Notes under the pieces: generated by a model
What the model was told of the DNA's origin: nothing
Databases searched by the model: none
Seen by the model: only the letters and a program-made list of their open reading frames with translations
Source: a virus
DNA length: 64,000 nt
Virus record (IMG/VR): IMGVR_UViG_3300032018_000001
Location: 77,807 to 141,806 of that record
Reading direction: 5' to 3' (one strand)
Program-made: the position numbers and the translations under genes
Shown: positions 5,393-11,419 of the stretch, piece after piece
Layout of the letters: each line of letters starts with the position of its first letter
Position numbering within the stretch: the first letter of the stretch is position 1

Positions 5393-5740
5393 GGGGGTGA
5401 ACGGACTCGATTTGAGAATTTAAGTAGTAGGTGCATGCTGAGGACGCAGGTGGGCCTCATAAAAATCCTGCAACAAACAAACAACGAATCCAATGTTGTT
5501 TCTCTGGCCACGCGCCAGAGCGCTGCCTTACAGCTCTCTTTCGTAGCTGCAAGGGCCAGTGTCGCAAACGAAGCGCTCCGTCTCGCAGCGTAAGCGAGAT
5601 TGATTGCGGGCTAAGTCCCGTTGCTGGCGTGAAACTGGTGCTGGGTAACTGACACGTCATAAGATGAGACCCGGATAAGCATGTAGTACCTACGCGGACG
5701 TTTTCAAAGACCGGGCTATCATAGGCCCGCACCTCCACCA
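5393..5740 (+). ncRNA. ssrA: tmRNA (one-piece)
   Basis: 5' GGGGGTG pairs with 3' CACCTCC-ACCA giving G3:U; GGACTCGA D-loop-like motif; tag frame ending ..LRLAA-TAA (5591-5593) inside hairpin TCTCGC/GCGAGA. Confidence 0.93.
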
Positions 5741-8215: not shown

Positions 8216-8380
8216 CATTTAATCAATGGTGGAAGAAATACTTCCCTACCTCAAAGAACACAACGGATGGCGGTGTACGGCTTTGAAAAGAAAAGAGCTT
8301 AAGAAATTAAAAAAGAACGGCGGTTTTTAACTAAACACAACAACCTTATACGAACAGGTTTTTAAAGAAGGGAGCGTAGT

Positions 8381-8584
8381 ATGCTAAGATTCAGGAAAGT
8401 TTTAGAAAGGCCATCTTGTTTTGAAATGCTTCGCAATAATAATTCAGACCGTAGGGGAGTGCTTCGTAAGAGTAGGGTAGGATTTCTTTATAAGGCGAAC
8501 AACGGTATTGTTATTGAGCAAGAGCTCACAATTCTTACCGCGGCAGAGATGAAACAGTGCCTGCGTAAACTTAAGGAGCTGTAG
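8381..8584 (+). CDS. hypothetical protein
   Basis: GGGAG RBS. Confidence 0.5.
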   Translation: MLRFRKVLERPSCFEMLRNNNSDRRGVLRKSRVGFLYKANNGIVIEQELTILTAAEMKQCLRKLKEL

Positions 8585-8585
8585 T

Positions 8586-8876
8586 ATGAAAGAGCTGACC
8601 CTGAAAGATGTTGACTGCCTTGTCACATGGCCCCCTGGAAGCGTGGGAGAGCTTTCAGACCGGACAATGTTGAATGCCTACCTGGAGCTGTGCAAACACC
8701 ACGGGTACGGCCGCACGGGACAGATAGCAGAGTCCGTGGAGGACATCTGGAGGCATCCGGAGAAGACGGCCGATTATCAGGAACAGAAAACCAAGCACCT
8801 GCGGGAGATGGACGAACTTTTACTTAATGGTGTAGCAGGGTCTGTATTATTAACTCACTCTTGGTATTTTCTCTGA
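8586..8876 (+). CDS. hypothetical protein
   Basis: AAGGAG RBS. Confidence 0.6.
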   Translation: MKELTLKDVDCLVTWPPGSVGELSDRTMLNAYLELCKHHGYGRTGQIAESVEDIWRHPEKTADYQEQKTKHLREMDELLLNGVAGSVLLTHSWYFL

Positions 8877-8890
8877 AGTATTTATTTACT

Positions 8891-8940
8891 GTGCGGTAGA
8901 GCAGAGTCGAGTAATGCATCGTATCGTATAGGTTTTTTAA
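8891..8940 (+). repeat. pentamer-periodic GYA-NN array unit A (putative guide RNA)
   Basis: GTGcg GTAga GCAga GTCga GTAat GCAtc GTAtc GTAta GGTTTTTTAA; G exactly every 5 nt. Confidence 0.85.
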
Positions 8941-8955
8941 CAAAAGGAGAGGCAG

Positions 8956-9549
8956 ATGAAATCATTCAGAATTGGAATTGAGGCGAATCCGGTTTTTCCC
9001 TATTACATGCAGCACCGTATGGATGACACTAAACTAGCTGACTGGGAAAAGAATCGCGGAAAGATTATGGAGCGTCCGGAGCTTAGCAAGGAAGACAACC
9101 TGAGGGCGGAGTATCACGCTTACCGGGATGAGAGGGGTTACTACATACCAACGGAGCACATCCTTGGTGCAATCAAGATTGCCAGTAAGGAATTCAAATC
9201 CAAAACAGGCTCTGGAAGGAAGAGCATGAAGGATGAGGTAGCAGGAGGATTCTTTATTCAGGGAGATGAGAATCCGTAAAAACTGTACTTTGAATTTTCA
9301 GATTTTCAAATTGATAAACGGTCAGCCGTGAATCAGAATAACAAGGCCCGCATAATTGTTATCCGTCCTAAGTTTAAAGGATGGAAGGCACAATTCAATC
9401 TCATGGTGGATAACGAAACTGTGACCCCTGAGACCATCAGAGGTATTGTGGAGCACGCCGGGCAGTATGTGGGAATAGGAAGCTACAGGCCTCCTAAGGG
9501 CGGAGCGTTTGGGAGATTTAAGATTAGTACGTTTGCAAAAGCAGCGTAG
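8956..9549 (+). pseudogene. stand-alone RAMP/Cas7-like protein (197 codons) interrupted by one in-frame TAA at 9277-9279
   Basis: track ORFs 8956..9279 and 9328..9549 share a frame; YYIPTEHILGAIK helix motif and Gly-rich loop VGIGSYRPPKGGAFGRF; AAGGAG RBS. Confidence 0.7.
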
Positions 9550-9689
9550 CCTATTGCAGTGTACGTCATGTATTGTTTCGCTTTTATTTTTCTCGCATGG
9601 TAATGTATTGTAATGCACGGTAAGGTAAAGGTTTTTTAAATTGTATGCCGTGTCGTAATGTAATGTGTCGTTTGGTAACGTAGTGCAGC
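9541..9689 (+). repeat. pentamer-periodic GYA-NN array units B, C, D (putative guide RNAs)
   Basis: B 9541-9584 degenerate; C 9595-9640 GCAtg GTAat GTAtt GTAat GCAcg GTAag GTAaa GGTTTTTTAAA; D 9650-9689 GTGtc GTAat GTAat GTGtc GTTtg GTAac GTAgt GCAgc. Confidence 0.85.
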
Positions 9690-9722
9690 CCTGCTACTCT
9701 AACGGGTAGCAGGGCTTTTTTC
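9687..9722 (+). terminator. intrinsic terminator closing the array, CCCTGCTACT/GTAGCAGGG family
   Basis: AGCCCTGCTACTC-taac-GGGTAGCAGGGCT plus T-tract. Confidence 0.8.
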
Positions 9723-9859
9723 CCCCTGCTATTAGTACCTTCCGTAGTAGCTACCTGCTACGCTTTCGACATCCCCTGCCACTAATCATTATAATTGAAT
9801 TTTATCTTATTTGTGAAAAAGGAATAAAGCTCACACATCCTCACCGGCTGGAGCAGTTA

Positions 9860-11419
9860 ATGGCACAGGTAGAGCTCAAAGAAGTTTTCTCCAATCTAAA
9901 AATAATCCGCGAGCAGGACGGCGGCAAAAAAGCCGTCTACAAATTCTCTGGCCCCTTCCAGGAAATGAATGATGTCCGGGGCACCAAAAACAAAAACGGC
10001 CGTATCTATAATAAGAAACTCTGGGAGCGCGTGTTCGGTGACGCCGGTGTTCAGGAGCGTTTGAGTAGCAAGCGCATGCTTGGCGAGCTCGACCATCCTA
10101 CTGATGATGGACAGATTCGGCGCACAAGTCATATTATAACAGAAGCGCGTCCTGACTGGAATGATGGCGTCATTTACGGAACGCTGGAGCTTCTGAATCA
10201 TGACCAGGGAGATGCTGCTCTTATTCGTGCTCTGGTTGACCAGGGCGTTCAGTTGTGTGTATCAAGCCGCGGGTTTGGTGAGTTTATGAAGGACGGTTGC
10301 ACTATCGACCCCGAAACTTACAAACTTGTCACATGGGATATTGTTCTCGACCCTTCCGTACCAATAGCAACCCTGAAGAAGGTTGCTGAATCGGTGAATC
10401 ATAACTTACCGATTGAAAGCAGGGCCAGGGCTAATTTCATAGAAACCCTTGCGGGCGCAAATAAGGAAACCAAAGAAACAAAGTCCGAAACAAAAACCAT
10501 ACAGGAGGATTCGATGGATGAGAAAATTGTAAGTCTCATGGAAAAGAACGGCGAGCTTCAGGCCACCAACGCGAAGAACGAAGCGAACCTGAACAACATG
10601 AAAGAACTGCTCACGAACAAGAACGAGCGGATTTCCGCGCTCGAAAACGCGAACAAGTCCCTCACGGAAAAATCCGCCAAGCTGGAAGAGACCAGCGCGG
10701 CCCTGACCAAAGCCAATGAAGCGACCACCAATCTTCAGAAGCAGCTCAAGGAATATGAGGAAATCGAAGACCGCGCCATCAAAGTCATCGAATCCCTCAA
10801 AGCCAAACTGGAGCACGCGGATACCCTCAGCGAAAAAGCCGCGGACACCATCGAAGAGCTCATGTCCAAAGTGAAAGAGCGCAAAACCAACGAAGCCGAT
10901 GACGCCGACAAAGCGGACAAGGACGTTGACGTTAAGGGAACGCTCCGCAACTGGACACCTGACCCCAGCAAGGGCGATGAGCTTGAACAGCTCAAAGGCC
11001 TTGTGAAGACGATGGAAAAGAAACGCGAAGAGGGCAAGAAGAAAATGGAAGACGCCGATGCGGACGCGAAAGCTGCTGCTGACAAAGCCGCGGCTGACAA
11101 AAAGGAAAAGGCGAAGAAGGAAGACATCGCGGACATGCAGAAGGCGAAAGATGCCAAAGACGCGGCCGACAAAAAGGAAAAGGCGAAGAAGGAAGACGCC
11201 GACCACAAGGAACCGGATGCGGATGACAAGGCCAAGGACGAAGATGATGACGCCGACAAGGATGCGGACGGTAAGGCCAAGACCAACGAAAATGATGACG
11301 AAGACGATGATGACAAGCCTTACGAGCCCACGGCCAAGGAAAAGAAAGAAGCCCGTATCAACATGCTGAAGAACCTGAGCGAGCAGACCGTGCGTGACGG
11401 CGCTCCCAAGAAACTGTAA
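9860..11419 (+). CDS. prohead protease (T4 gp21-like) fused to coiled-coil/acidic scaffold (gp22-like)
   Basis: NKNGRIY, LGELDHP, TSHII, VSSRGFG, TWDIVLDPS; long coiled-coil and D/K-rich C-terminal half. Confidence 0.9.
   Translation: MAQVELKEVFSNLKIIREQDGGKKAVYKFSGPFQEMNDVRGTKNKNGRIYNKKLWERVFGDAGVQERLSSKRMLGELDHPTDDGQIRRTSHIITEARPDWNDGVIYGTLELLNHDQGDAALIRALVDQGVQLCVSSRGFGEFMKDGCTIDPETYKLVTWDIVLDPSVPIATLKKVAESVNHNLPIESRARANFIETLAGANKETKETKSETKTIQEDSMDEKIVSLMEKNGELQATNAKNEANLNNMKELLTNKNERISALENANKSLTEKSAKLEETSAALTKANEATTNLQKQLKEYEEIEDRAIKVIESLKAKLEHADTLSEKAADTIEELMSKVKERKTNEADDADKADKDVDVKGTLRNWTPDPSKGDELEQLKGLVKTMEKKREEGKKKMEDADADAKAAADKAAADKKEKAKKEDIADMQKAKDAKDAADKKEKAKKEDADHKEPDADDKAKDEDDDADKDADGKAKTNENDDEDDDDKPYEPTAKEKKEARINMLKNLSEQTVRDGAPKKL
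10514..11419 (+). CDS. nested in-frame scaffold protein
   Basis: internal AGGAGG RBS then in-frame ATG 10514 (MDEKIVSLME) at the domain boundary. Confidence 0.6.
   Translation: MDEKIVSLMEKNGELQATNAKNEANLNNMKELLTNKNERISALENANKSLTEKSAKLEETSAALTKANEATTNLQKQLKEYEEIEDRAIKVIESLKAKLEHADTLSEKAADTIEELMSKVKERKTNEADDADKADKDVDVKGTLRNWTPDPSKGDELEQLKGLVKTMEKKREEGKKKMEDADADAKAAADKAAADKKEKAKKEDIADMQKAKDAKDAADKKEKAKKEDADHKEPDADDKAKDEDDDADKDADGKAKTNENDDEDDDDKPYEPTAKEKKEARINMLKNLSEQTVRDGAPKKL

What the first reader, a model, noticed from the sequence alone, without database searches (positions are those of the whole stretch)
9541..9689. Information content of the GYA-NN units: distinct dinucleotide strings with U-rich punctuation
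Seen: G recurs every 5 nt, position 2 is T/C, position 3 is mostly A, and positions 4-5 vary. NN strings are A: CG GA GA GA AT TC TC TA; C: TG AT TT AT CG AG AA; D: TC AT AT TC TG AC GT GC. Unit B is degenerate (one 4-nt step, one G>C). Units A and C end in an identical AGGTTTTTTAA and B in GCTTTTATTTTT, which may be processing or boundary signals. Units share the scaffold but not the NN, which argues against slippage and looks like a multi-guide library of 14-16 specified bases each.
Basis: partly seen in the sequence, partly recalled or inferred. Interest (0 to 1): 0.85.

Follow-up and report, generated by a model that had tools for sequence, protein, structure and literature searches.

The report
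Phage VIPR guide-RNA repeat genes
These five-base repeats are the guide-RNA genes of a VIPR system, a CRISPR-like phage weapon first described in two 2026 preprints; the element is real but of a known kind, and its protein gene here carries a premature stop.

Summary
Three perfect period-5 G-Y runs (8891-8930, 9595-9629, 9650-9689) and one degenerate run (9541-9594) flank a single gene (8956-9549). There are no other perfect runs in the 141.8-kb phage genome.

The gene is a Vipr protein. A profile of its family matches PDB chain 36pp_D, 'SUSP1 Vipr protein', at E 2e-15, and its predicted fold matches Csm3/Cas7. All 19 related loci I fetched carry same-strand G-Y arrays beside the gene.

This is therefore a VIPR locus (bioRxiv 10.64898/2026.04.26.720920 and .720927). 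In VIPR, Vipr forms a filament on a pentamer-repeat vrRNA, and the variable dinucleotides read DNA with a one-base skip.

Three corrections:
- Across the clade only G-Y is conserved (the 'YNNNG' variant named in the paper's Methods). The A at position 3 is peculiar to this phage.
- The pairing dinucleotide is probably positions 3-4, not 4-5. A related locus (L011) has a vrRNA matching 10 of 10 consecutive codons of its own vipr gene in that register.
- The vipr gene has an in-frame TAA and the guides are very short, so function is doubtful.

No target was found. Gapped strings of 16 bases occur tens of times by chance in IMG/VR.

The parts
8891..8940 (+). vrRNA unit A: 8 pentamers (GTGCG GTAGA GCAGA GTCGA GTAAT GCATC GTATC GTATA) plus the 3' motif GGTTTTTTAA. 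It lies directly upstream of the vipr ribosome-binding site.
8956..9549 (+). vipr gene, 197 codons, encoding a RAMP/Cas7-like protein. It is read as one frame with an internal stop and ends at TAG 9547-9549.
9277..9279 (+). In-frame TAA at codon 108, ahead of the thumb hairpin and the G-loop. Most of the shown homologues have Glu at this column, consistent with GAA>TAA (inference; others have Gln, Asp or Lys).
9541..9594 (+). vrRNA unit B, degenerate: 5 pentamers (one with G>C), a 4-nt step, 2 pentamers, then the T-rich tail GCTTTTATTTTTCTC. It overlaps the vipr stop codon.
9595..9639 (+). vrRNA unit C: 7 pentamers plus the 3' motif GGTTTTTTAA.
9650..9689 (+). vrRNA unit D: 8 pentamers. The last one enters the terminator stem.
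9687..9722 (+). Intrinsic terminator (13-bp stem, 8 G-C pairs, followed by a T run) that closes the locus.

Best explanation
The interval holds three of the four vrRNA genes of a VIPR (Viral Interference Programmable Repeat) locus. The layout is vrRNA A - vipr - vrRNAs B, C, D - terminator, all on the + strand.

As shown for phage SUSP1 in the two 2026 preprints, one Vipr protomer binds each pentamer of the RNA. It sequesters the conserved G-Y (G-G-Y in SUSP1) and presents the next two bases, so the filament reads double-stranded DNA as NN-x-NN-x and silences it.

This phage belongs to a clade whose repeats keep only G-Y (the 'YNNNG' variant), with a short U-rich 3' boundary motif and no accessory vap gene. 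I infer that the guide dinucleotides are positions 3-4 of each pentamer:
- A: GC AG AG CG AA AT AT AT
- C: AT AA AT AA AC AA AA
- D: GT AA AA GT TT AA AG AG

Shown here: homology of the protein, the architecture and its conservation, and the register in one relative. Inferred: transcription, RNP formation and DNA targeting in this phage. The premature TAA in vipr makes current activity uncertain.
For: 1. Protein. The clade profile hits PDB 36pp_D 'SUSP1 Vipr protein' at E 2e-15 over nearly full length. BLASTP to the Felixounavirus homologue gives 2e-18. tblastn finds 128 phage records, including phiSUSP1. The AF2 model (pLDDT 79, pTM 0.75) matches Csm3 and other Cas7 proteins by Foldseek at E 1e-6, probability 1.00.

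2. RNA. Same-strand period-5 G-Y arrays abut the gene in 17 of 17 IMG/VR loci, in 2 of 2 MAG loci and in phage tootiki. They occur nowhere else in this genome.

3. Published mechanism. The Methods name YNNNG repeats as an alternative vrRNA form.

4. Register. The SUSP1 residues that hold G2 and Y3 are kept (R138=R137, W178=Y/F177, R179=R178). D177, which reads G1, is Ser here. The L011 downstream vrRNA matches positions 1-2 of 10 consecutive codons of its own vipr gene and 9 codons of L007's, in frame with the wobble base skipped. In 1.08 Mb of clade phage genomes, runs of at least 8 perfect pentamers number 7 in this register (5 of them overlapping L011-to-vipr hits) against 0-2 in shuffles.
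Against: - vipr carries an in-frame TAA. TAA is the commonest stop in this genome (40 of 82 long frames) and the phage has no tRNA genes. The full-length protein is therefore probably not made.
- The units have only 7-8 pentamers. They are the shortest in the clade (median 14) and below the 9-16 reported for SUSP1.
- No natural target was found for any window unit.
- No expression data exist, and no promoter was recognised upstream of unit A.
- The register rests on a single natural example in a 46%-identical relative. The strong A bias at position 3 is unexplained.
Confidence: 0.85

Rival explanations
1. In this phage the scaffold is G-Y-A, and the specificity bases are positions 4-5 (A: CG GA GA GA AT TC TC TA, and so on), read with a one-base gap.
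For: Position 3 is A in 18 of 23 pentamers, far above the clade, so it looks scaffold-like here. Positions 4-5 are more diverse than 3-4.
Against: Position 3 carries only 0.11 bits across the clade. The G2 and Y3 contact residues are conserved, which places N4N5 right after G-Y. The only natural target found fits positions 3-4 and not 4-5. The 25 frame-aligned hits are unrelated proteins sharing ATVQ[DE][IM][IM][DE], about the number that amino-acid frequencies predict (my estimate).
Confidence: 0.12
2. Decaying remnant. The locus is a VIPR system that has recently been inactivated, and the arrays are no longer used.
For: There is a nonsense codon ahead of the thumb and the G-loop. Unit B has a frame slip and a lost G. 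The arrays are the shortest in the clade. The guide positions are A-rich and of low complexity.
Against: G-Y is intact in 23 of 23 pentamers of units A, C and D. The 3' motifs are identical and the rest of the ORF is open and conserved (67% identity to P0001). Any loss must therefore be very recent. The TAA could also be an assembly error or a minority variant in a metagenomic record (G000 is an IMG/VR virus record).
Confidence: 0.4
3. The repeat RNAs assemble Vipr filaments for a purpose other than sequence-specific targeting, such as a decoy or scaffold. On this view the variable bases are simply unconstrained.
For: No target was found for any window unit, nor for two long guides of relatives.
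Against: Programmable DNA targeting was shown experimentally for SUSP1 and P. fulva systems. The L011 guide matches a coding sequence over 20 of 20 bases in the published code.
Confidence: 0.05
4. The repeats are a DNA-level feature (iterons, a packaging site or replication slippage) or arise by chance.
For: The 10-bp half-period could phase protein binding on DNA. TRF reports a period-10 array.
Against: The arrays are strictly co-oriented with the gene in every locus, and G-U pairs occur in a relative's tail hairpin. The units differ in content. The protein homologue is an RNA-binding RAMP solved with such an RNA.
Confidence: 0.02

Closest known systems
VIPR type II of Escherichia phage SUSP1 / Felixounavirus (bioRxiv 10.64898/2026.04.26.720920 and .720927; PDB 36pp)
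   Same: A homologous ~195-aa Vipr RAMP protein. Pentanucleotide-repeat RNAs lie on the same strand both upstream and downstream of the gene. The variable bases differ between units. There is no cas1 and no CRISPR array.
   Different: The repeat keeps only G-Y, whereas SUSP1 has G-G-Y, and the G1-reading Asp is Ser. The 3' end is a short U-rich motif or a terminator instead of a pseudoknot tail. No vap gene follows vipr. The units are 7-8 repeats long against 9-16. Protein identity is 29%. Here vipr has a premature stop.
Alternative 'YNNNG' vrRNAs listed in the Methods of the VIPR paper
   Same: The same consensus as this clade: Y, three variable bases, then G.
Class 1 CRISPR backbone filaments (Csm3/Cmr4/Cas7 on crRNA)
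   Same: A RAMP fold with thumb and G-loop. One protomer binds per fixed RNA step, and bases are flipped periodically. These are the top Foldseek hits.
   Different: The step is 5 nt, not 6. The guide is a genomically hard-wired repeat tract, not an acquired spacer. There is no repeat-spacer array, Cas1, Cas6 or large subunit. Target pairing is gapped (2 of every 3 bases).

Membership tests
VIPR system | A Vipr protein homologous to the characterised SUSP1 Vipr | tested here: met
   Profile A1 against PDB 36pp_D 'SUSP1 Vipr protein' gives E 2e-15, aligning 1-187 to 1-191. BLASTP gives 2e-18. tblastn hits include phiSUSP1.
VIPR system | A RAMP fold with an RRM core, thumb hairpin and glycine-rich loop | tested here: met
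   AF2 model with pLDDT 79. Foldseek finds Csm3, type VII Cas7 and Cmr4 at E 1e-6 to 1e-4. The G-loop GIGSYRPPKGGAFGRF is conserved.
VIPR system | Tandem pentanucleotide-repeat RNA genes next to vipr on the same strand, with a conserved motif alternating with variable bases | tested here: met
VIPR system | The canonical G-G-Y motif (YNNGG) | tested here: not met
   The base 5' of G-Y is variable (0.18 bits). This is the YNNNG variant that the paper's Methods list as an alternative.
VIPR system | A conserved 3' tail capping each vrRNA | tested here: inconclusive
   A conserved short motif, (GTTTA) GTAWA G T-run AA, ends units across the clade. No pseudoknot is present. Only unit D is followed by a hairpin, which is a terminator.
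VIPR system | An accessory vap gene | tested here: not met
   No gene other than vipr is shared among 19 loci. The paper describes six vap genes for seven types and calls the vap 'typical', so one may not be required (my inference).
VIPR system | A natural DNA target matching the variable dinucleotides with a 1-nt skip | tested here: inconclusive
   Window units: no target above chance. Clade: the L011 vrRNA matches 20 of 20 bases of vipr codons in frame.
VIPR system | vrRNAs are expressed and co-purify with Vipr, giving programmable repression | not testable with these tools
   This needs small-RNA sequencing, pull-down and reporter assays.
VIPR system | An intact vipr reading frame | tested here: not met
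   TAA at 9277-9279. TAA is a normal stop in this genome, and the genome has no tRNA genes.
CRISPR-Cas (class 1) | A repeat-spacer array and an adaptation gene (cas1) | tested here: not met
   There is no Cas1 (PF01867) in the complete genome, while the controls rang. The arrays are pentamer tracts, not repeat-spacer units.

The most novel reading that the evidence does not exclude
The G-Y-only clade uses the SUSP1 code with a free fifth base, and some of its guides are aimed at vipr genes themselves. The L011 vrRNA matches the G-loop codons of its own vipr gene and a relative's. This would mean self-regulation of VIPR, or warfare between VIPR-carrying phages, in a lineage with no accessory gene. 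In the window phage the near-fixed A after G-Y could mark a further shift of the code.
Probability: 0.25. Interest if true: 0.55.

Novelty: new member of a known kind. Interest (0 to 1): 0.35.

Why it matters
VIPR was described only in 2026 and tested in two closely related systems. This locus adds a member from a distant, large T4-like phage with a complete 141.8-kb genome. Its wider clade appears mostly in uncultured phages, and two loci sit in Bacteroidota MAG contigs.

The clade shows how far the repeat can relax (G-Y only), that it can work without a vap gene, and, through the L011 example, that the one-base-skip register probably still holds. The window copy itself, with a nonsense codon and very short guides, is a candidate for studying how such systems decay. 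None of this changes the known mechanism.

Tried and rejected
- Rfam (gathering thresholds) on the window and on 17 loci gave nothing at the arrays, only tmRNA and tRNAs.
- DNA similarity of 8300-10000 to cultured phages gave no match.
- A single-sequence scan of IMG/VR with the protein found nothing. The alignment-based scan worked.
- I tested whether all three variable bases form contiguous codons. Stop-codon depletion was weak: 41 observed against 55 expected in sense, 54 against 49 in antisense. Not supported.
The hits are unrelated sequences, and the frame alignment is explained by common peptides.
- 20-base seeds from long guides of L010 and L013 gave 0 hits.
- Seeds from L253 guides in 596 Gb of genomes gave 0 hits and 4 hits. 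The 4 are unrelated gene starts, and none of the flanking pentamers matched fully.
- All clade guides against 15 full clade phage genomes plus this genome (1.08 Mb) gave only the L011-to-vipr match.
- Degenerate-peptide matching of guides to 121 proteins (120 Vipr homologues plus tootiki Vipr) gave one 8-codon run, which is not convincing.
- A TRAP-like ring protein, DNA iterons and a pac site were considered early and dropped once the Vipr homology was clear.

Full report
**What is in the sequence**

Unit C (9595-9629) has seven pentamers beginning G-Y and is followed by GGTTTTTTAA. Unit D (9650-9689) has eight pentamers and runs into a strong terminator hairpin at 9687-9716. Unit B (9541-9594) is degenerate, with one G>C, one 4-nt step and a T-rich end.

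Unit A lies outside the given interval, at 8891-8930. It is followed by the same GGTTTTTTAA.

The periodicity is far beyond chance: 13 pattern matches against 3.4 expected, with none of 100 shuffles reaching 13. In the complete 141,806-bp genome, perfect 7-of-7 runs occur only at these three places. Rfam has nothing here.

**The gene between the units**

Frame 8956-9549 is a single 197-codon frame with one in-frame TAA at codon 108. Its C-terminal part hits phrog_4652.

Read through, the protein has 138 uninterrupted homologues of about 190 aa in metagenomes. It also matches 128 cultured phage records at 28-29% identity, mostly Felixounavirus and including phiSUSP1.

Most of the shown homologues have Glu at the stop position, so GAA>TAA is a plausible origin. 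TAA is the commonest stop codon in this genome and the phage has no tRNA genes. The stop is therefore real as assembled.

The AlphaFold model (pLDDT 79, pTM 0.75) matches Csm3, type VII Cas7, Cmr4 and Cas7-11 (Foldseek E 1e-6 to 1e-4, probability 1.00). The stop lies ahead of the thumb hairpin and the glycine-rich loop.

**The association is conserved**

In Escherichia phage tootiki, the homologue is flanked by period-5 G-rich arrays that the depositors annotated only as 'repeat_region'.

All 17 IMG/VR loci found with the family alignment have same-strand G-Y arrays directly before or after the gene. So do both loci found in Bacteroidota MAG contigs.

Nothing else is shared between these loci, so there is no conserved accessory gene.

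Array layouts vary:
- L014 has eight units separated by a conserved ~58-nt element with a 10-bp hairpin containing a G-U pair.
- L007 and L018 have continuous tracts of 73 and 90 pentamer steps, punctuated by T runs.
- L016 is a GC-rich version with G-C-N-N-N pentamers.

**What it is**

A literature search found two 2026 preprints that describe this kind of system. They name it VIPR, for Viral Interference Programmable Repeat.

A ~20-kDa RAMP protein, Vipr, polymerises one protomer per pentamer on vrRNAs made of 9-16 YNNGG repeats. It sequesters G-G-Y and presents the NN bases. These pair with double-stranded DNA with one base skipped per dinucleotide. The result is transcriptional silencing of satellites, prophages and rival phages. 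SUSP1, a Felixounavirus, is the model system.

The PDB copy holds 'SUSP1 Vipr protein' (36pp_D). The profile of this clade matches it at E 2e-15 over nearly its full length. The genome has no Cas1.

**How this clade differs, and which bases are the guide**

Over 766 pentamers from 16 loci, information is 2.0 bits at G and 1.47 at Y. The three remaining positions carry only 0.11, 0.11 and 0.18 bits.

The clade is thus the 'YNNNG' form that the paper's Methods mention without further detail. The A at position 3 is peculiar to this phage.

In SUSP1 numbering (G1 G2 Y3 N4 N5), the conserved G-Y corresponds to G2-Y3. The residues that hold G2 and Y3 are retained (R138, W178 as Y/F, R179). The Asp that reads G1 is Ser in this clade. 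This predicts that the two bases right after G-Y pair with the target and the fifth base is free.

A direct example supports this. The vrRNA downstream of vipr in L011 has eleven pentamers, and positions 3-4 of the first ten read CA AA GG GA TT GG GT TT GA AT. These match positions 1-2 of ten consecutive codons (HKGEFGVFDI, the G-loop) of L011's own vipr gene, in frame with the wobble base skipped. The fifth base matches the wobble base only 3 times in 10.

The same guide matches nine codons of L007's vipr, which differs at several wobble positions. In IMG/VR, the 18-base seed hits only these two contigs and one unrelated short contig.

Against 1.08 Mb of full clade phage genomes, runs of at least 8 perfect pentamers number 7 in this register (5 of them overlapping L011-to-vipr hits). 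Shuffled guides give 0-2.

My rough estimate of the chance probability of the L011 match, allowing for the search space, is about 1e-3. It is one example found post hoc, so I put the register at about 0.65 for the window.

**Consequences for the window**

In the inferred register the guides are:
- A: GC AG AG CG AA AT AT AT
- C: AT AA AT AA AC AA AA
- D: GT AA AA GT TT AA AG AG

The last one or two pentamers (GTAWA) probably belong to the conserved 3' motif rather than the guide.

These are the shortest units in the clade (7-8 pentamers; median 14) and are of low complexity. Combined with the nonsense codon and the damaged unit B, they suggest the locus may be freshly inactivated. However, G-Y is intact in 23 of 23 pentamers, and the record is metagenomic, so the TAA could be a variant or an error.

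**Target search**

No window unit has a significant match in its own genome or in the clade genomes.

The hits are unrelated sequences.

That is about what amino-acid frequencies predict. A 14-16-base gapped string is specific within one cell but not in a database of this size.

Longer seeds from relatives' guides found nothing convincing. The target therefore remains unknown.

**Verdict**

The corrections concern the scaffold (G-Y, not G-Y-A), the register, and the functional state of the locus.

The element is a new member of a recently published kind, not a new kind. The first-stage notes on the same window had already called the gene Cas7/RAMP-like and flagged the TAA, and my tests agree with both.

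Noticed in passing
window 9277-9279: An in-frame TAA splits the vipr gene into 107 and 89 codons. Most of the shown homologues have Glu at this position. TAA is the commonest stop in the genome, and the phage has no tRNA genes.
   Followed up: yes
L011 3101-3155 versus L011 3017-3046: A vrRNA just downstream of vipr matches 20 of 20 bases (codon positions 1-2 of 10 codons) of its own vipr G-loop region, and 9 codons of the vipr of another phage (L007). This could be self-regulation or anti-VIPR targeting. The published study reported no self-targeting in its own sets.
   Followed up: partly
window 5393-5740; L015 3623-4026: A phage-encoded tmRNA (Rfam RF00023, 89 bits) lies 3.2 kb upstream of the VIPR locus. 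Another VIPR-bearing phage contig (121 kb) has a tmRNA about 560 nt downstream of its vipr.
   Followed up: no
L014 3083-3990: An array of eight vrRNA units is separated by a conserved ~58-nt element with a 10-bp hairpin containing a G-U pair. The layout looks superficially CRISPR-like.
   Followed up: partly
L007 2119-2483; L018 3079-3528: Continuous in-phase tracts of 73 and 90 pentamer steps are punctuated by T runs. These may be the 'staggered arrays' mentioned in the VIPR paper.
   Followed up: no
window units A, C and D, position 3 of each pentamer: A occurs in 18 of 23 pentamers, against 0.14-0.55 in 16 related loci. GTAAT alone makes up 5 of the 23. The cause is unexplained; it could be target composition, filler pentamers or a local change of the code.
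   Followed up: partly
window 9766-9795: A near-consensus sigma-70-like promoter (TCGACA, 18 nt, TATAAT) lies just after the VIPR terminator and upstream of the prohead protease gene at 9860-11419.
   Followed up: no
L253, L254: Clade vipr loci sit in contigs binned with Draconibacterium and Cyclobacteriaceae MAGs. L254 and L009 carry identical 9-pentamer guides. This hints at Bacteroidota hosts for part of the clade.
   Followed up: partly
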